Part shown: positions 4,299 through 64,000 of the stretch, one piece after another
Layout: the number at the start of each line of letters is the position of its first letter
How positions within the stretch are numbered: position 1 is the stretch's first letter
Origin: a virus
DNA: 64,000 bases
Strand: one strand, 5' to 3'
Virus record (IMG/VR): IMGVR_UViG_3300037424_000906
Location: 39,780-103,779 of that record
The notes under the pieces: model-generated
Seen by the model: the letters and a program-made list of their open reading frames with translations, nothing else
The model's database searches: none
What the model was told of the DNA's origin: nothing
Made by a program: the position numbers and the translations under genes

Positions 4299-4519
4299 CG
4301 CCGATCCCATCCCGGCGGGAACATCAGCTCATCCAGCGGCACACCTGACTGGGTGTTCTCGATGTCGATGGACATCATCTGATGGGCAGCTTCCTGGAGC
4401 AGGCAGAGGAAGACCTTCGCCTGCACGGAGGTGATACGCATCTGCCGCTGCATGACGTACTGGCTGAGGGCTGCGTACTCGCGGGCTAAGTCGGCGTCGA
4501 TCGGGTCTGGGCTGCTCAC
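4295..4519 (-). CDS. Hypothetical protein
   Basis: 4-nt overlaps on both sides within the leftward operon. Confidence 0.6.
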   Translation of the reverse strand: MSSPDPIDADLAREYAALSQYVMQRQMRITSVQAKVFLCLLQEAAHQMMSIDIENTQSGVPLDELMFPPGWDRR

Positions 4520-4947
4520 AGCTCTCCCGCGTAGGCGTTGAACGCGGCACGGAAGATGCCACGTATGGCCTGGCCGAGGGCTTCGTCTGCGCAGCGGTCA
4601 CACCCAGGTCCGGTGCAATCAACCTGCGGGATGTAGGGGTACACCATGCCGGGATGCCAGCGGCCGGCGAACGGCATCCACCCAGGGTGCCGCTCAGTCT
4701 CGATGCACCGTGCCCGGCGGCAGTAGCGGATGGTTGCGCGGCCGAACCCGTTGTAGTACGGCCCCCAGTCGTGGCCTTGGTCGCAGAGGGCGGCGAGCAC
4801 GGCGGCTTGCTGCTCGGCTTCATCGGCTGCTAGCAGGAGGGCTGCCGCGTGCTTGCGTGCCGCGTCGGGGCTGAAGCTGTCGGGTCCGTCTTCTGCTTCG
4901 CGGTCGCCGAGGTAGACGAGACCGCGATCTGCCCAGACGGCGCTCAC
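4516..4947 (-). CDS. Hypothetical protein, Cys/His putative Zn-binding
   Basis: CDQGHDW...CRRARC and CTGPGCDRC; coupled to neighbours. Confidence 0.65.
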   Translation of the reverse strand: MSAVWADRGLVYLGDREAEDGPDSFSPDAARKHAAALLLAADEAEQQAAVLAALCDQGHDWGPYYNGFGRATIRYCRRARCIETERHPGWMPFAGRWHPGMVYPYIPQVDCTGPGCDRCADEALGQAIRGIFRAAFNAYAGEL

Positions 4948-27524: not shown

Positions 27525-29913
27525 CGGCTACGTTGAGATTCGCATCAAAGGCACGAACGCCTCCAAGCCTGCGTTCAAGGAAGCCGAAGCCGACGCCAAA
27601 GACCACGGGAACAAGGTCACCACGATCCTTGGCCAAGCAGGCGAGCGTGCCGGTGAGGCCCTGGGCGAGGGCATCAAGCGCGGCTCGGACGGCAAGCTTC
27701 GTGATGCCAGAGGCAGGTTCGTCAAGGAAGGCAAAGGCCTCGGCGAGGGTCTAGGCGAGGGCATCAAGGACGGCCTCGGCGACGGCGTCAACGCGGGCAC
27801 CTCGATGTTCGGCCGCTTCCTGGACACCATCGTCGGCATGGCGTCGGTCACGACGGAAGGCGTCGGTAAAACACTGGCGTCGCTTTTTCCTGCGGGCGCG
27901 TCTTTTCTCGGCCTCACTGCGGCAACGGGCGGCGTGAACCTCCTCGTCGGTGCGTTCTTGCTGTTGGTCGCTGCTGCTGCGGCAGCGCTCGCGGGGCTGA
28001 TCGTGCTGGCGCCGACGCTGCTCCTGATCGGCGGTGCGGCCGGATCGGTGACAACCCTGCTGGTAGGGCTCGGCGGTGCGGTCGCGGTGCTGGGTTTGGG
28101 CCTGGGTGGCCTGTCGGATGCGTGGACCGCGTACGGCCTGTCCGCCAGCGGTGGTGGTGTGTCCTCGGCCGCTGCCGCACGGCAGGTGGTGCAGGCGCAG
28201 CGTGAGGTGAAGTCCGCGACCCTCGACCTCGCGGACGCGCAGAATGCTGCCCGGCAGGCGCAGGAGGCGGTGACGCAGGCGCGGCTGGATGAGTCGGAGC
28301 GGCTCAGTGACCTGCAACGGAATCTGGCGTCGGCACAGCGGGATGAGGAAGGCGCGATCCTCGCGGTCACCCGGGCGGAGCAGCGTTTGCGTGAGGTGCG
28401 CCGGCAGCCGGGTCGTACCGCCCTGGACGTGAAGGAAGCCGAGCTTGCTCTGCGTCAGGCTGTGGGCGCGGTCGATGACATGCGGGACCACGTCGATGAC
28501 CTGAGCAAGGAGCAGGCTGCCGGCGCGAAGAAGGGCGTCGAAGGCAGCGACGCGGTGCAGTCCGCTCTGGAGCGTCAGAAGCAGGCGCAGCGCAGCCTGG
28601 AGCAGGCGACGTGGCGGCTCGCCGACGCGCAGAAGGCTGTTGCTGAGGGTGCGGGCGGTGCGGCTGGTGGGGTGGACAAGTTCGCGGAGGCGATGGCGAA
28701 GTTGTCGCCGAACGCGCAGGCTTTGATCAAGACTTTGATCGCGTTGAAGCCGAAGTTCGACGAACTGAAGAAGTCGACGCAGGACCGGCTTCTTGAGGGT
28801 ATCGACACCTCGGTCAAGGATCTGGCTACGAAGTGGCTGCCGACGCTCGGCCCGATGTTGGGTGGGCTTGCTGGCAGCTTCAACAAGGTTGGCAAGTCGC
28901 TGCTTGATTCGCTGGGCAAGAAAGATTTCATCGAGAACATCTCCACCGCCATGGCCGGGTTCGGGCGGTTCGTGGAGCGTGTGGGTGGGGCGATCTCGGG
29001 CCCGCTCGTGGACGCGTTCGGCCGTCTGGCTGCCGCGTCTGCGCCGTTCTTGGAAACCCTGGGCGACAAGATCGCCGGTTTGGTGGAGAACTTCTCTGCG
29101 TGGATCAAGACCGCTGACGAATCCGGCTCCCTGACGTCGTTCATGGAGAGTGCGTCGAGGGCGCTCTCGGATATCTGGTCGATTGGCGGCCTGACGATTG
29201 ACATCCTCGGTGAGATCGTGTCGACCTTGTGGCCGGGTTCAAAGCGGGAGTCGTCGACCTTCCTCGGTGGTGTGATCGTTCGGATGCAGGAGTTTCGGGA
29301 CTGGCTTGCTGATCCGGAGAACAAGCAGAAGATCCAGGACTGGATTGAGCGCATCCAGGATTTGGGCAAGGCCGCTTTTTGGGTGGCTGACAAGGTCGGC
29401 GGTTTGATCGACATGGTTAGTGGTTGGGTCGACAGGGTCAGTGAGTGGGCTACTGCGGTCGGCAAAACCAAAGACAAGATCAAGAAAAATGCTTCCGGTC
29501 TGTTCGACGGGCTGAAGGACGCGTTCAAATCCGCCCTGAACTGGATCATCGACCGGTGGAACGGGCTGCGATTCACACTGCCCAGCGTCAACCTTTTCGG
29601 CAACGAAATCGGTGGCGGCAGCATCGGCACCTCGCACATCAACCGCTTCGCCCAAGGCGGTATCGGCGGCGGCCTGGCCTGGGTCGGCGAACGCGGACGT
29701 GAACTCGTCAACCTGCCGCAAGGGTCGCAGGTCATCCCCCATGGAAGCAGCGAAGCCATGGCTGCGGGCGGCGGGGGTGGGGGTGCCCGTGAGGTGCGTC
29801 TGATCATCGAGCTGCGTAACGCAACAACCGAGGTCGCGAACCTCATTCGGAAGATCGTCAACGTCGAAGGCGGCGGGGACGTCTCCGTCGCGTTCGGGAA
29901 AGCATCGAGGTAA
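27517..29913 (+). CDS. Tape measure protein
   Basis: GGAGG SD; hydrophobic segments, coiled coil, KLSPNAQ, FAQGG...WVGERGRELV. Confidence 0.92.
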   Translation: MSDGYVEIRIKGTNASKPAFKEAEADAKDHGNKVTTILGQAGERAGEALGEGIKRGSDGKLRDARGRFVKEGKGLGEGLGEGIKDGLGDGVNAGTSMFGRFLDTIVGMASVTTEGVGKTLASLFPAGASFLGLTAATGGVNLLVGAFLLLVAAAAAALAGLIVLAPTLLLIGGAAGSVTTLLVGLGGAVAVLGLGLGGLSDAWTAYGLSASGGGVSSAAAARQVVQAQREVKSATLDLADAQNAARQAQEAVTQARLDESERLSDLQRNLASAQRDEEGAILAVTRAEQRLREVRRQPGRTALDVKEAELALRQAVGAVDDMRDHVDDLSKEQAAGAKKGVEGSDAVQSALERQKQAQRSLEQATWRLADAQKAVAEGAGGAAGGVDKFAEAMAKLSPNAQALIKTLIALKPKFDELKKSTQDRLLEGIDTSVKDLATKWLPTLGPMLGGLAGSFNKVGKSLLDSLGKKDFIENISTAMAGFGRFVERVGGAISGPLVDAFGRLAAASAPFLETLGDKIAGLVENFSAWIKTADESGSLTSFMESASRALSDIWSIGGLTIDILGEIVSTLWPGSKRESSTFLGGVIVRMQEFRDWLADPENKQKIQDWIERIQDLGKAAFWVADKVGGLIDMVSGWVDRVSEWATAVGKTKDKIKKNASGLFDGLKDAFKSALNWIIDRWNGLRFTLPSVNLFGNEIGGGSIGTSHINRFAQGGIGGGLAWVGERGRELVNLPQGSQVIPHGSSEAMAAGGGGGGAREVRLIIELRNATTEVANLIRKIVNVEGGGDVSVAFGKASR

Positions 29914-52812: not shown

Positions 52813-52941
52813 TGTCGGGTTGTCGGTGTCGGACTGTCGGAGTGTCGGGCCGAGTAGCGGGGTGGTGAGGCTTTGAGCTGGGGAAACTGGGGTGGGAGGG
52901 GGTGGTTGAGACTGTCGGACCGACACTCCGACACTCCGACA
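52813..52941. repeat. clt-like cluster of TGTCGG repeats, mostly 8-bp period
   Basis: TGTCGG at 52813, 52821, 52827, 52835, 52843, 52913; CCGACA at 52920, 52928, 52936. Confidence 0.75.
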
Positions 52942-52960
52942 AAGACGCGCCCTGCGCTGG

Positions 52961-60542: not shown

Positions 60543-62012
60543 TTATTCGGTTGGCCGATCGTTGCGGACTGGTTCAATGACCACCCGATCCGGGTCAAAG
60601 CGTCGGGGTGCGCGGCGGTCAAGTGGCATAATCAGCACTTTCTTGCCGCGTAACGCTCGTTGGATCATTGCTCTTCTCCGGTCAGTGGAGGAGTTGTCCC
60701 ACCGCAACTGCCACTCAGAGTGTGACGCCATGGTCATTTCAGGCGTCACTTCTTCCAGCGTGGGCATGTCGCCGAGCCGGGCCAGCTGCGTACGTAGCTC
60801 ATCTAGGCGCCGGTCGAGCGGTCCTACGGCAGCGTCATGCCTGGCGAGGTCCATCTCTCCGCGCCCCAGTCTGGCTGCCAGTTCGGTTGCCGTGTGTTCG
60901 ATCTCGGCTATCTGCTTATCAAGATCGTTCTTTTGTTCGCGGGCACTCCGCAAGGCGGCCTCAACCGCCGTGGCATGTCGAGGGTCGGCAAGGATGTTCA
61001 CGACGATCTGACCCATGTACTTGTCGAGTTCACGCTGGTCAATGGAGAGACGGCCGCATCCCTCACCCCGGCGCGGATGGCACCAGTACTGTCGGCGAAT
61101 CTCCCCGTTGGGGTAAGGCGTCAGGTTGCCGCGAGGTCTGCCCGTAAGCCGGTTCTGGCATCGCCCACAATGCACAAACGCAGAGCACAGGTAGATCGGG
61201 GAGACCGGACGCCCGTGCCGCCGAGCCGCATAGATGGCGCAGATCCGTTCCCAGTCACCCTTCTCCAGAATCGGGGCGCCCGGCATTGTCGCGACAATCT
61301 CCCCCTTGTGCTCAACCAAGCCCGCGTTACGCGGTCTGAGAATGACCTGGCGCAGCGCGACCAGGTCCCAGGCGTTGCCGTAGGAAGTGAGGACGCCGCG
61401 GGCGTTCAGATCCACAGCTATGGCGCTCTGGGAGTCCCCAGTGAGCAACCGGGCTGCAATGGAACGCAGCTCTTCGGCCTCCGCCCGGCGGTGGGTTACC
61501 CCGTCCTGCTCGAATCCGTACGGGCGGACGGTGTGGTTGGACTCTCCAGACATGGCCTTGAGCCTCTTGCCCCTGCGGACGCGGGTGGAGAGCCGATCTG
61601 ACTCGTAGGCCGCACTGTTCATCTGCTCCCGGAAGTGCTTCTTGCCGGATGCGCTGGTGAGGTCATATTCGCCTTCGGAGTCCAGGATGATCAGACCTCG
61701 TTCGGCGGCTGCGATCAGCCGCTCGCCTTCGGCTGGGCGGCGGCTGAATCTGGCGAGGTCGAAGACGACGGCACCGCCTGTCTCCCCGACTTCAAGCCGG
61801 CGCATGAGTTCGTCCCAGCCCGGTCGTTTAGCGCGAGGGTTCCAGGCGGAGCGCCCTGGGTCGCTGAGGGTCTCGCCGACGAGAGCGCCGCGCTCGATGA
61901 TGCGTCCCTTGCAGTCCTGTGCTTGCCCCTCGGAGGAGCGTTGGCGTTCGTCTCCTAGTCGGCTGGTGCGGGTATAGATGTCGAGGATGAGTTCGCCTTT
62001 AGGTTTCGCCAT
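60543..62012 (-). CDS. int: Large serine integrase
   Basis: IYTRTS, D.GRSA, RPG, DLARFSR; recombinase domain; CGRC...YWC....C Zn ribbon; coiled coil. Confidence 0.95.
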   Translation of the reverse strand: MAKPKGELILDIYTRTSRLGDERQRSSEGQAQDCKGRIIERGALVGETLSDPGRSAWNPRAKRPGWDELMRRLEVGETGGAVVFDLARFSRRPAEGERLIAAAERGLIILDSEGEYDLTSASGKKHFREQMNSAAYESDRLSTRVRRGKRLKAMSGESNHTVRPYGFEQDGVTHRRAEAEELRSIAARLLTGDSQSAIAVDLNARGVLTSYGNAWDLVALRQVILRPRNAGLVEHKGEIVATMPGAPILEKGDWERICAIYAARRHGRPVSPIYLCSAFVHCGRCQNRLTGRPRGNLTPYPNGEIRRQYWCHPRRGEGCGRLSIDQRELDKYMGQIVVNILADPRHATAVEAALRSAREQKNDLDKQIAEIEHTATELAARLGRGEMDLARHDAAVGPLDRRLDELRTQLARLGDMPTLEEVTPEMTMASHSEWQLRWDNSSTDRRRAMIQRALRGKKVLIMPLDRRAPRRFDPDRVVIEPVRNDRPTE

Positions 62013-62164: not shown

Positions 62165-62668
62165 TCAAGCGGGGGAGGCCATGCCTTCCCCTGTTTCGCG
62201 TCCTGGTGGTGGTACTTGGCGCCGCCGCTTGAATAGCTTTTCGTCCTCGGCGAGCTGCGCGAGATACCGCTCGCGGTCGTGCCTAAGGTTCTGTCGGTGC
62301 CGGTTCAGCATCGTGTCCCGGTCGTCTTCGTCAATGTCAAGCGCCATGATCTTCTGTACGACGACGTCGTCCGGATCAAGGTCATGTAGGCGCGGGTCTC
62401 GTGCGGGTAGCGCCGGCGGCTCTTCGTCGCTGGCGAGTAGGCCAGCGGCGGCCAGCGCGAGCCGTGGGTCAACCTTGAGTACGGCGGCGACCTTCTCGAC
62501 GAGTTCGACGCTTTCGGGCTTCTGCTTGCCGGTCTCCCAACGCCATACCGTCTCCCTGGCCACCCCGACGAGAGTGGCTAGTGCCTGCTGGCTCATCTTC
62601 GCGGCCTTGCGTTCGCGCGCGACGAACGTGGCCCAGTCGTCACGTTCGATGCCCCGAGTGTTGCGCAT
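62165..62668 (-). CDS. Immunity repressor (XRE HTH), leaderless
   Basis: MSQQALATLVGVARETVWRWETG; TACTCT -10 six nt upstream of ATG. Confidence 0.88.
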   Translation of the reverse strand: MRNTRGIERDDWATFVARERKAAKMSQQALATLVGVARETVWRWETGKQKPESVELVEKVAAVLKVDPRLALAAAGLLASDEEPPALPARDPRLHDLDPDDVVVQKIMALDIDEDDRDTMLNRHRQNLRHDRERYLAQLAEDEKLFKRRRQVPPPGRETGEGMASPA

Positions 62669-62856: not shown

Positions 62857-62911
62857 GTGACGGTAGCGCAACACCCGATCCCGCTGTAGCTTGTGTGACG
62901 TGACCGCAACA
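62857..62911 (+). promoter_or_regulatory. Early promoter/operator with CGCAACA sites
   Basis: TAGCTT -10 ahead of leaderless GTG; CGCAAC motif clustered 62659-62936. Confidence 0.7.
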
Positions 62912-63256
62912 CTTGATGGACTGGCAGACGCAACAGACGTCACACCCGCAAGCACGCTGCGGTTCGACGTCATCAAGCCCCGCGCCGCCCAGATCCTGAA
63001 AATCCCAGTCGAAGACGTCAGCGACATTGTTCTCGGTGAGCTGTTCGGTGTCAGCCGCGAAACGGTCTGGCGCTGGAACGCAGGGCGCTTCGGGCCCCGC
63101 GGGACCAGGCTCCGCGACATGGCGAATTACCTCGGCCTGACGGTCGAGGAGATCGTGGCAGCCAAGGCGCCGTCCACTCCGCCAACCACCCCGGTCCGGC
63201 CCGCTGCACCGACCACGCCTACCGCGCCAGCCCGGCCGAAGAAGGCTGCGGCATGA
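62900..63256 (+). CDS. Cro-like HTH protein
   Basis: LFGVSRETVWRW, recognition helix matching the repressor; divergent. Confidence 0.85.
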   Translation: MTATLDGLADATDVTPASTLRFDVIKPRAAQILKIPVEDVSDIVLGELFGVSRETVWRWNAGRFGPRGTRLRDMANYLGLTVEEIVAAKAPSTPPTTPVRPAAPTTPTAPARPKKAAA

Positions 63257-63352: not shown

Positions 63353-63871
63353 GTGAACAGGAACTTTGCGACCGACATGCGGGCCGTCATGGACGCCGAG
63401 ACCGCCCATGGTCCGTACACCTCGGCGCTCATCGCCGAGCAGATCGTGGAGAAGCTCCGCGCCACCGACCCCGATCTGCTTCAGGGCTGGCTTGACATGC
63501 AGGCCGTCGGCTTCCTTCGTCACGCAATCAACCTGCGCGACTGCTCTCAGCGTTCTCATGCTCGCGCCACGGCTGGCCGCTCAGTCTTCCGCGATGCCGC
63601 CGATGCGGCCGACGACGGCGACGCCGGACCACTGAGCGCGTTCCTCGCCACGGTCTACGTGGTGGAGGACGGGTCGCGGGTGCGGCTATCGGAGATGCGG
63701 CAGCCGGAGCTGATCTACGCAGCTGACGACTACGGCAAGCGGGCCGCCGAGAACCTCCTCCAGGAGGCGTTCTTGCGGGCCCTCGCGAAGAAGGTCGGCA
63801 CGGGCCGCGTGTCTGACCACTACGACGACTCGAAGCTCACCGAGTTGTGGCTGAGCATCACGAGCCGCTGA
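63353..63871 (+). CDS. Hypothetical protein directly preceding the 48-bp array
   Basis: GAGGAG SD, GTG start; stop codon is part of array unit 1. Confidence 0.8.
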   Translation: MNRNFATDMRAVMDAETAHGPYTSALIAEQIVEKLRATDPDLLQGWLDMQAVGFLRHAINLRDCSQRSHARATAGRSVFRDAADAADDGDAGPLSAFLATVYVVEDGSRVRLSEMRQPELIYAADDYGKRAAENLLQEAFLRALAKKVGTGRVSDHYDDSKLTELWLSITSR

Positions 63872-64000
63872 CTACCCTGCCCCGCCCATTTCTGCCCCAG
63901 CCGACCCCGCACGAATCGACAATCCTACCCCGCCCTGCCCCCGCCGCCCCAAGCCCACCCGACCCGACTACCCGTGCCTTCCCAGCCCGTGCCAACACCT
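63869..64000 (+). repeat. 48-bp-unit array with internal 5-nt NNCCN lattice (truncated)
   Basis: YGAC heads at 63869, 63917, 63965; CC at positions 3-4 of most following pentamers. Confidence 0.75.

What the first reader, a model, noticed from the sequence alone, without database searches (positions are those of the whole stretch)
63353..64000. 48-bp-unit array on a 5-nt lattice: candidate non-CRISPR guide-RNA array
Seen: units start at 63869, 63917 and 63965: TGACT ACCCT GCCCC GCCCA TTTCT GCCCC AGCCG ACCCC GCACG AAT / CGACA ATCCT ACCCC GCCCT GCCCC CGCCG CCCCA AGCCC ACCCG ACC / CGACT ACCCG TGCCT TCCCA GCCCG TGCCA ACACC. Length, the GAC head and the CC phase are fixed (19 of 22 pentamers; the rest keep the second C), while intervening bases vary freely, unlike slippage repeats. 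The array starts at the stop codon of the second gene of the Cro operon. Inference: an RNA in which a polymerising protein binds each constant dinucleotide and the variable bases encode a target in a gapped code, reminiscent of recently reported phage pentamer-repeat/Cas7-like (VIPR-type) systems. The effector may lie beyond the window, and only 2.7 units are visible.
Basis: partly seen in the sequence, partly recalled or inferred. Interest (0 to 1): 0.85.

Follow-up and report, generated by a model that had tools for sequence, protein, structure and literature searches.

The report
Phage VIPR guide array, C-type
The C-rich 5-base-step repeats at the window's end are the first part of a guide-RNA array belonging to a VIPR system (a CRISPR-related, phage-borne system first described in 2026), whose lone Cas7-like protein gene lies at the other end of the same contig; it is a real but already published kind, here with an unusual C-based scaffold.

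Summary
Observation confirmed; first reading supported. Window 63869-64000 holds 2.75 units of a head-plus-pentamer array: head (C/T)GAC-NN-CCC, then NN-c-Y-C steps. C occupies 22 of 22 lattice positions. Lag-5 autocorrelation beats all 5000 shuffles, and there is no 3-nt signal. The window ends at the contig end. The array resumes in lattice phase at the contig start (G000:C1:1-236) and runs up to the RBS of a 222-aa gene. That protein folds as a Cas7-type RAMP and is homologous to the characterised SUSP1 Vipr (hhalign 94%, E 1.4e-7). The order gene A (window 63353-63871), array, RAMP recurs in actinophage and prophage loci. Arrays in 31 loci all have the C lattice on the RAMP-sense strand. 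Read with the published 1-nt-skip rule, relatives' guides match rival phages' genes perfectly and wobble-aligned, including a terminase Walker A and the RAMP gene of this very phage. No target was found for the window's own guides. It differs from published VIPR in three ways: cYC/NN instead of GGY/NN on the sense strand, G-contacting residues replaced, and a short 5' head instead of a structured 3' tail. Two tRNA-flanked arrays argue that the C-rich strand is the RNA. This scan had already flagged this family, including this genome's other end.

The parts
63869..63916 (+). Array unit U1, 48 nt: head TGACTACCC (TGA is the stop codon of gene A) followed by 8 NN-cYC steps
   Evidence: the head and lattice logo from 103 units in 12 arrays is
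63917..63964 (+). Array unit U2, 48 nt: head CGACAATCC followed by 8 steps
63965..64000 (+). Array unit U3, first 36 nt, cut by the contig end. It continues in lattice phase at G000:C1:1-27. Outside the window follow units U4-U8 and a terminal head (G000:C1:28-225), then the RBS and the 222-aa RAMP gene (G000:C1:240-908).
63353..63871 (+). Gene A, 172 aa: a conserved partner gene placed immediately upstream of the array (candidate accessory, Vap-like). Helical, with no known fold or family.
   Evidence: 118 homologues. It is found directly upstream of the array in the 19 loci with a gene A match, including this genome. AF2 model pLDDT 88. No PDB fold match. No Pfam, PHROG or PADLOC family.
62891..63256 (+). 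Cro-like HTH gene, first gene of the rightward early operon that carries gene A, the array and the RAMP gene
   Evidence: weak HTH_31, HTH_3 and HTH_26 matches below the Pfam cut-offs; PHROG transcriptional regulator and repressor families
62165..62668 (-). CI-like HTH repressor, divergent from the cro-like gene (context: immunity region)
   Evidence: HTH_31 at 2e-9 and HTH_3 at 4e-9
60543..62012 (-). Large serine recombinase (integrase); context showing a temperate phage
   Evidence: Resolvase, Recombinase and Zn_ribbon_recom domains

Best explanation
Window 63869-64000 is the promoter-proximal end of a VIPR-type guide-RNA array of at least 8 units. The array lies inside the early rightward operon of a temperate actinophage: cro-like gene, gene A, array, RAMP gene. 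Most likely mechanism (inferred): the operon transcript is read in the C-rich sense, and protomers of the 222-aa Cas7-like RAMP polymerise along each unit, one per 5-nt step. Each protomer holds the fixed c-Y-C triplet and exposes the NN dinucleotide. The head (C/T)GAC-NN-CCC contains a shortened 3-nt step that resets the phase, so it ends one filament and starts the next; unit lengths are therefore 5k+3, and the exposed linker is probably where the RNA is cut. Each unit's 6-12 NN pairs read double-stranded DNA with one target base skipped per step, so in a gene the skipped base can fall on the wobble position. The complexes bind, and probably silence, conserved genes of rival phages. The sequence features, the RAMP fold, the homology to Vipr, the synteny and the relatives' guide-target matches are shown here. 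Transcription, strand, processing, protein-RNA binding and silencing are inferred from the published SUSP1 and P. fulva VIPR work (bioRxiv 10.64898/2026.04.26.720920 and .720927). The confidence given is for 'VIPR-type guide array'; given that, I put about 0.8 on the C-rich sense strand being the RNA.
For: (1) Lattice and heads. In 103 units from 12 arrays the third triplet position is C in 91-97% of units at every step, and the NN columns are near-uniform. In the full set of 133 parsed units, 64 have length 5k+3 and 37 have 5k+4.
(2) Effector: the AF2 model of G000:C1:240-908 has pLDDT 91.8. The listed Foldseek PDB hits are all Cas7-type RAMPs (type VII Cas7 at E 3e-8, Csm3, Cmr4, gRAMP). VIA-align gives Z 10.3 to Csm3. 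Profile-profile comparison with the SUSP1-type Vipr family gives probability 94% and E 1.4e-7 over 133 columns, including helix 1 and the G-loop.
(3) Synteny: gene A, array and RAMP gene lie on one strand in IMG/VR, metagenome and prophage loci (Nocardiopsis, Streptomyces MAG, Jatrophihabitantaceae MAG). In 29 deduplicated loci, plus Mae-JY09 and L113, the C lattice is always on the RAMP-sense strand.
(4) Gapped code: among guides with 16 or more specified bases, perfect matches occur only with the 1-nt skip rule, apart from one 18/18 hit under skip 3 that was not inspected.
- The L018 guide matches 18/18 on the Walker A codons (VRGPHGLGK) of a rival's terminase large subunit.
- The L023 and L009 guides match 16/16 on the PTDPKVAEGWLK codons of the RAMP genes of 27 and 14 other loci, including this genome at C1:327-361.
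- In these cases the skipped bases are third codon positions. L023's own RAMP gene escapes through a Lys-to-Arg codon.
- Wobble-aligned vipr-targeting guides are described in bioRxiv 10.64898/2026.10.15.759431.
(5) Strand: in L042 two arrays exactly fill gaps between same-strand tRNA genes. In SUSP1 the vrRNA arrays are on the vipr-sense strand. The array leaves no intergenic room, running from the stop codon of gene A to the RBS of the RAMP gene.
(6) Changed specificity: the SUSP1 residues that contact G1 and G2 (D177, W178, R138) align to Ala, Ser and a non-basic stretch in this family, while the G-loop glycines and the residue aligned to R179 are kept.
Against:
- None of the window's own seven full guides has a convincing target. 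Local best matches are at background level. Exact IMG/VR scans gave 0 hits for U1, U2, U3 and U6, and chance-level numbers of hits for the three 16-base patterns (U7, U8 and U1 without its last pair).
- The enrichment in the number of guides with hits is modest: 6 guides against 0-3 in the controls, in a database of about 0.5 Mb. The many hits on RAMP genes come from only two guides.
- The fixed triplet is not GGY on the sense strand. In the published systems the invariant part is a 3' tail; a 5' head fits that layout less well than the antisense reading does.
- The strand argument rests mainly on one tRNA-embedded locus plus operon context.
- No promoter or terminator calls help.
- The two contig ends are only inferred to be adjacent.
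Confidence: 0.8

Rival explanations
1. It is a VIPR array, but the RNA is made from the opposite (G-rich) strand. Units would then read (NN-G-R-g)n and end in a short invariant 3' tail, GGG-NN-GUCG. That would be a canonical-like GGN/NN vrRNA with a 3' tail, encoded antisense to the RAMP gene.
For: On the minus strand the invariant base is G, followed by a purine, close to the 'NNNGG' variant named in the methods of 10.64898/2026.04.26.720920. The constant motif would sit at the 3' end of each unit, as the published tail does. Two of the four SUSP1 tails begin GGGTAGT, like the reverse complement of CGACTACCC. The target search cannot tell the strands apart, because both DNA strands are scanned.
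Against: The arrays in L042 lie between same-strand tRNA genes with no spacing. SUSP1 arrays are sense to vipr. In all 31 loci the C strand is the RAMP-sense strand, and the array sits inside an operon with no room for an antisense promoter or terminator. The G-contacting residues D177, W178 and R138 are not conserved. A G-rich RNA with GGG every 5 nt would be prone to form G-quadruplexes (general knowledge).
Confidence: 0.15
2. It is a DNA-level repeat element, not a guide array: iterons or operator-like protein-binding sites (the CGACTNCCC heads every 33-53 bp), or an i-motif/G-quadruplex tract that regulates the downstream gene.
For: Conserved 9-nt heads at semi-regular spacing resemble iterons. 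A CGAC-containing repeat cluster of another kind lies elsewhere in the window (about 52817-52960). No RNA has been shown.
Against: This does not explain the strict 5-nt lattice between heads with hypervariable NN, the unit lengths quantised as 5k+3, the constant pairing with a RAMP gene across 35-100% protein identity, the tRNA-flanked arrays, or the perfect wobble-aligned 1-nt-skip matches to rival genes.
Confidence: 0.03
3. It is a translated proline-rich C-terminal extension or small ORF; frame 63847-63999 is open to the end of the window.
For: An open frame runs through the tract, and most frames of most arrays lack stop codons.
Against: The lack of stops is expected in DNA with about 55% C. 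Autocorrelation at lag 3 is negative while lag 5 is strong. Unit lengths are 5k+3 or 5k+4, not multiples of 3, and vary between loci. Gene A ends at a conserved stop inside or just before the first head. Some arrays sit between tRNA genes.
Confidence: 0.01

Closest known systems
Type II VIPR of Escherichia phage SUSP1 (Vipr + vap1 + four vrRNAs); bioRxiv 10.64898/2026.04.26.720920 and 10.64898/2026.04.26.720927; genome KT454805
   Same: A lone small RAMP homologous to Vipr (hhalign 94%). Arrays built of 5-nt steps, 3 fixed and 2 variable. Arrays on the RAMP-sense strand. A phage-borne two-gene module. Relatives' guides obey the 1-nt-skip rule and are wobble-aligned, and they target rival phages, including rival vipr genes.
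   Different: The fixed triplet is c-Y-C, not GGY. D177, W178 and R138 are not conserved. There is no roughly 35-nt structured 3' tail; instead there is a 9-nt head on the 5' side. Units abut directly and are shorter (33-63 nt against about 100 nt). The partner gene A lies upstream of the array and has no recognisable DNA-binding fold. The hosts are actinobacteria.
'Staggered' vrRNA arrays with 1-nt overlaps (fig. S18 legend of 10.64898/2026.04.26.720920)
   Same: Units follow each other without spacers. In the 5k+3 units the last lattice C of one unit is the first C of the next head, which is a 1-nt overlap.
   Different: Only the legend could be read. Its sequence motif, strand, VIPR type and hosts are unknown to me, and the paper says this array type was not confirmed by RNA sequencing.
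Non-canonical VIPR-like 5-mer arrays (GAC/NN, CAC/NN, WGT/NN, TGH/NN) in bioRxiv 10.64898/2026.10.21.760802
   Same: Vipr-like folds next to 5-nt arrays whose fixed triplet is not GGY. This shows that the family tolerates other triplets, some ending in C.
   Different: cYC/CCC is not among the examples named in the text, and the full list (Fig. S10A) could not be read. Those sequences were oriented by embedding, not by transcription.
CRISPR-Cas class 1 crRNP backbones (Cas7, Csm3, Cmr4)
   Same: The same RAMP fold, and one protomer per fixed step of the guide.
   Different: No CRISPR repeat-spacer array, no other cas genes nearby, a 5-nt rather than 6-nt step, and a gapped rather than near-contiguous guide.

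Membership tests
VIPR (Vipr + vrRNA) | Stand-alone small RAMP (RRM core, thumb, G-loop) outside any cas operon | tested here: met
   AF2 pLDDT 91.8. Foldseek top hits are Cas7, Csm3 and Cmr4 at E down to 3e-8. VIA Z 10.3. Terminal loop GIGASRSQGFGRY. The neighbouring genes are not cas genes. PADLOC gives only weak Cas6 G-loop hits.
VIPR (Vipr + vrRNA) | Sequence homology to a characterised Vipr protein | tested here: met
   Family profile A1 against SUSP1-type Vipr profile A3: hhalign probability 94%, E 1.4e-7, 133 colinear columns. Against the single SUSP1 sequence: E 7.8e-4.
VIPR (Vipr + vrRNA) | Adjacent array of tandem 5-nt repeats with three constrained and two hypervariable positions | tested here: met
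   In the window C fills 22 of 22 lattice positions. Across 103 units the invariant C is at 91-97% and the NN columns are near-uniform.
VIPR (Vipr + vrRNA) | Fixed triplet is GGY, on the strand of the vipr gene as in SUSP1 | tested here: not met
   The sense strand reads c-Y-C; the antisense strand reads G-R-g. In SUSP1, GGY is on the vipr-sense strand.
VIPR (Vipr + vrRNA) | Residues that hold the two guanines (SUSP1 D177, W178, R138) are conserved | tested here: not met
   They align to Ala, Ser and a non-basic stretch. The residue aligned to R179 and the G-loop glycines are kept.
VIPR (Vipr + vrRNA) | Repeat tract followed by an invariant structured 3' tail | tested here: not met
   The only constant element is the 9-nt head (C/T)GAC-NN-CCC, which lies 5' of the tract on the sense strand. 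Neither strand folds better than shuffled sequence (z +1.3 and +1.5). No Rfam family matches.
VIPR (Vipr + vrRNA) | NN strings match natural targets under the 1-nt-skip rule, wobble-aligned in genes | tested here: inconclusive
   Met for relatives' guides: 18/18 on a terminase Walker A and 16/16 on RAMP genes, with perfect long matches essentially only under skip 1. Not met for the window's own guides, for which no target was found.
VIPR (Vipr + vrRNA) | vrRNAs are expressed, processed and bound by Vipr | not testable with these tools
VIPR (Vipr + vrRNA) | Accessory vap gene in the locus | tested here: inconclusive
   Gene A (window 63353-63871) lies directly upstream of the array in 19 loci but has no known family or fold. 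Homology to vap1-6 could not be tested because no sequences were at hand.
CRISPR-Cas | Repeat-spacer array (about 25-40-nt identical repeats with unique spacers) together with cas1/cas2 or an effector operon | tested here: not met
   The only constant element is 9 nt. There is no spacer-like contiguous variable block and no cas operon in the neighbourhood.

The most novel reading that the evidence does not exclude
This actinophage clade is a VIPR lineage that has switched its scaffold letters. The guide is the C-rich sense RNA with a c-Y-C fixed triplet, read by a RAMP in which the guanine-holding residues are replaced. Units are delimited by a 3-nt phase reset (the CGAC head) rather than by a structured tail. 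If so, it is a second, orthogonal protein-RNA code for gapped DNA recognition, one that can also be released from tRNA operons by tRNA-processing enzymes.
Probability: 0.55. Interest if true: 0.65.

Novelty: new variant of a known kind. Interest (0 to 1): 0.5.

Why it matters
VIPR is a minimal RNA-guided DNA-binding system (a protein of about 20 kDa plus a short RNA) first reported in 2026. A large, well-populated clade (1814 protein clusters at 90% identity, 599 at 50%) that uses a different fixed triplet with matching changes in the base-contact residues would do three things. It would show how the protein-scaffold code evolves. It would offer an orthogonal scaffold for multiplexed use. It would extend inter-phage guide warfare to temperate actinophages, with guides aimed at a terminase P-loop and at rivals' own RAMP genes. 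For this window in particular, it explains an otherwise odd C-rich tract and shows that the contig is broken inside the array.

Tried and rejected
- Plain Fourier power at period 5 was not significant. This was abandoned as a test because each head shifts the phase by 3 nt; lag autocorrelation and head-anchored occupancy were used instead.
- The open-frame test is uninformative: C-rich DNA lacks stop codons.
- Pfam, PHROGs and a PDB sequence search gave nothing for the RAMP. PADLOC gave only weak Cas6 G-loop hits.
- Promoter and terminator scans were empty. Folding of either strand showed no structure. Rfam had no match.
- Targets of the window's own guides. The local database gave only background matches. 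Exact IMG/VR scans found nothing for U1, U2, U6 and U3. U7, U8 and the shortened U1 gave 25, 12 and 7 hits, about what chance predicts and mostly in low-GC phages. One U8 hit (16/16, wobble-aligned, in a tape-measure gene of a GC-rich phage) is kept only as a lead.
- The 'second array' that my script called at window about 52817-52917 (-) is a different CGAC/CCGACA repeat cluster without a 5-nt lattice.
- Gene A has no fold match: no Foldseek PDB hit at E <= 0.001, VIA best Z 4.9, and weak BFVD hits to uncharacterised actinophage proteins.

Full report
**1. What is in the window**

Positions 63869-64000 are 55% C. They split into units that start at 63869, 63917 and 63965. Each unit opens with a head, (C/T)GAC-NN-CCC, and continues in 5-nt steps of the form NN-c-Y-C.
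- Anchored at the heads, C fills 22 of 22 lattice positions. A pyrimidine precedes it in 20 of 22 and a further C in 15 of 22. The 22 intervening dinucleotides take 13 values.
- C autocorrelation is 0.33 at lag 5 (0 of 5000 shuffles reach it), 0.32 at lag 10, 0.47 at lag 48, and negative at lag 3.
- Global Fourier power at period 5 is not significant, because every head shifts the phase by 3 nt.
- The stop codon of ORF 63353-63871 is the TGA of the first head.

**2. The array does not end at the window**

The window is G000:C1:39780-103779 of a 103,779-bp IMG/VR record, so base 64000 is the contig end.
- The first 236 bases of the same contig carry the same heads and lattice.
- The two ends join in phase: 36 + 27 nt make a 63-nt unit (5x12+3) with C at every lattice position.
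- Joined, the array has at least 8 units: 48, 48, 63, 38, a 13-nt stub, 53, 43 and 42 nt. A last head is followed at once by AGGAG and a GTG start.
- I infer a circular or permuted genome whose assembly broke inside the array. Units could be missing at the break.

**3. The gene after the array is a Vipr-like RAMP**

- G000:C1:240-908 encodes 222 aa ending in GIGASRSQGFGRYEV. It has no Pfam or PHROG family.
- An AlphaFold2 model built on 62 homologues has pLDDT 91.8.
- The listed Foldseek matches in the PDB are Cas7-type RAMPs (type VII Cas7 at 3e-8, Csm3, Cmr4, gRAMP). An independent all-against-all aligner gives Z 10.3 to Csm3, and its top rows are almost all CRISPR RAMPs.
- I fetched phage SUSP1 (KT454805) and located its VIPR locus, vipr at 28474-29061 on the minus strand. 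The gene fits the residues named in the structure paper (H17, E71, M72, R138, D177, W178, R179).
- Our family's profile against a profile of 39 SUSP1-type Viprs gives hhalign probability 94% and E 1.4e-7 over 133 colinear columns, from helix 1 to the G-loop.
- The family is large: 1814 clusters at 90% identity and 599 at 50%.

**4. The module is conserved**

- In IMG/VR, metagenome and genome collections the order gene A, array, RAMP on one strand recurs.
- Hosts named in the records are Nocardiopsis, a Streptomyces MAG and a Jatrophihabitantaceae MAG. A gene A homologue lies in Micromonospora tulbaghiae.
- The neighbouring cro-like gene and the downstream gene are not conserved with the module, so the trio moves as a unit.
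- In a more distant branch (RAMP 50-56% identical) the array follows the RAMP gene, after a hairpin. SUSP1 has a similar hairpin between its genes and its downstream array.
- The only cultured phage with this clade in the phage collection is Microcystis phage Mae-JY09 (35% identity). It has the same CGACTNCCC-headed array after the gene.
- Over 103 units from 12 arrays, the lattice C is at 91-97% at each step, the base before it is C or T, the base before that is C in about 55%, and the NN columns are near-uniform. In the full set of 133 parsed units, lengths cluster at 33/34, 38/39, 43/44, 48/49 and 53/54 nt; 64 are 5k+3 and 37 are 5k+4. In the 5k+3 units the last lattice C is the first C of the next head.
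- The clade is rare in sequenced genomes: 2 of 401 sampled from the class.

**5. Does the gapped code hold?**

I read each unit's NN string with 0, 1, 2 or 3 skipped bases. I scanned about 0.5 Mb of related loci on both strands with the arrays masked, and added reversed, swapped and shuffled guides as controls.
- For guides with 16 or more specified bases, perfect matches appear only under the 1-nt skip, apart from one 18/18 hit under skip 3 that I did not inspect and suspect is an unmasked array copy.
- Under my thresholds 6 guides score with skip 1, against 0-3 in each of eight controls.
- The L018 guide matches 18/18 on codons VRGPHGLGK. This is the P-loop of a rival's terminase large subunit (phrog_2 at 3e-39).
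- The last guides of L023 and L009 match 16/16 on the PTDPKVAEGWLK codons of the RAMP genes of 27 and 14 other loci. These include this genome at C1:327-349 and 338-361.
- In these cases every skipped base is a third codon position.
- L023's own RAMP gene differs at one targeted codon (CGC in place of AAG), so the guide spares its owner.
- This mirrors what is published for SUSP1-family guides that target vipr (10.64898/2026.10.15.759431).

The evidence is good in quality but small in quantity. Most hits trace to two guides on a conserved site.

**6. The window's own guides**

- Seven full guides were decoded. None matches its own genome above background, so there is no sign of self-targeting.
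- None has a convincing target in the related loci.
- Exact scans of IMG/VR gave nothing for U1, U2, U3 and U6, and chance-level counts for the three 16-base patterns.
- One U8 hit is wobble-aligned in a tape-measure gene of a GC-rich phage. I keep it only as a lead.
- Exact-match scanning is a blunt tool; the published work accepted matches of 80%.

**7. Which strand is the RNA?**

This decides whether the scaffold is C-type or a canonical G-type.

For the C-rich sense strand:
- (a) In L042 two arrays fill exactly the gaps between same-strand tRNA genes of a 15-tRNA cluster (4390-4489 and 4567-4878). Each starts right after one tRNA and ends at the 5' end of the next.
- (b) SUSP1's vrRNA arrays are on the vipr-sense strand.
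- (c) In all 31 loci examined the C lattice is on the RAMP-sense strand, whether the array lies before or after the gene.
- (d) The array runs from the stop codon of gene A to the RBS of the RAMP gene, with no room for its own signals.
- (e) The residues that hold the two guanines in SUSP1 are replaced, while the rest of the G-loop is kept.

For the G-rich antisense strand:
- The constant motif would then be a 3' tail, as published.
- The triplet would read G-R-g, close to a named variant.

I put about 80% on sense, given that it is a VIPR array. RNA data could not be obtained.

**8. Mechanism**

- Shown here: the lattice, the heads, the RAMP fold and its homology to Vipr, the synteny, and the relatives' target matches.
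- Inferred from the SUSP1 work: protomers bind one step each, hide the fixed triplet and present NN. The target is double-stranded DNA read with one base skipped, and binding represses transcription.
- My own inference: the head contains a 3-nt step (GA-C) that puts the next filament out of register. This both punctuates the array and exposes a linker for cleavage.
- The module sits in the early operon beside the immunity region: serine integrase, CI-like repressor and cro-like gene. If the RNA is sense, it would be made with the early lytic genes.
- Gene A is a helical protein with no known fold. Its role is open.

**9. Comparison and novelty**

- The kind is published: three Doudna-lab preprints from April to October 2026, and a language-model survey that lists non-canonical 5-mers.
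- This clade meets the protein and array criteria. It fails three features of the characterised type: GGY on the sense strand, the guanine-contact residues, and a structured 3' tail.
- It may correspond to the 'staggered' arrays mentioned in a figure legend, or to one of the 21 non-canonical clusters. I could not read those figures or tables.
- Earlier notes of this scan had already called this family a VIPR with C-phased guides, on the other end of this same genome and on other genomes. I re-derived those points independently here.

I therefore class it as a new variant of a known kind, of moderate interest.

Noticed in passing
window about 52817-52960 (-): An intergenic tract in the conjugation (TraB-type) module holds three GTGTCGGA direct repeats and five CCGACA units in inverted orientation. 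It shares the CGAC core with the array heads but has no 5-nt lattice. It probably holds regulator-binding or clt-type sites.
   Followed up: partly
L042:4390-4489 and 4567-4878: C-lattice guide arrays exactly fill two gaps in a same-strand cluster of 15 tRNA genes. Both end in CCCAGCCCGT right at the next tRNA's 5' end, which suggests release by tRNA-processing enzymes.
   Followed up: partly
L113:2340-2410 (G335:C22): A distant RAMP homologue (E 1e-43) is followed by an array that contains 12 identical GCCAA pentamers in tandem. This could be a degenerate guide or a slippage product.
   Followed up: no
L091:2429-3600 (Microcystis phage Mae-JY09, PP395641.1): This is the only cultured phage in the collection with this RAMP clade. 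The gene is annotated as hypothetical. It is followed by about 10 CGACNNCCC-headed units and a perfect 11-bp hairpin. The region shown is strikingly GC-rich for a Microcystis phage.
   Followed up: partly
L028:2-1612: The largest array seen: 39 units in two blocks upstream of the RAMP gene.
   Followed up: no
G000:C1:66-78 (outside the window): A 13-nt stub unit (CGACTACCCGAAT) repeats the head and end of its neighbours, apparently a small duplication inside the array.
   Followed up: no
G000:C1:327-361 (outside the window): This phage's own RAMP gene is a perfect 16/16 wobble-aligned target of guides carried by two other phages (L009 and L023), so the phage appears to be prey as well as hunter.
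   Followed up: yes
L096:5571-5593 and L100: Window guide U8 matches a tape-measure gene (codons IIGPANKF) of a GC-rich uncultured phage 16/16 in wobble register. This is within chance expectation for a 16-base pattern in IMG/VR.
   Followed up: partly
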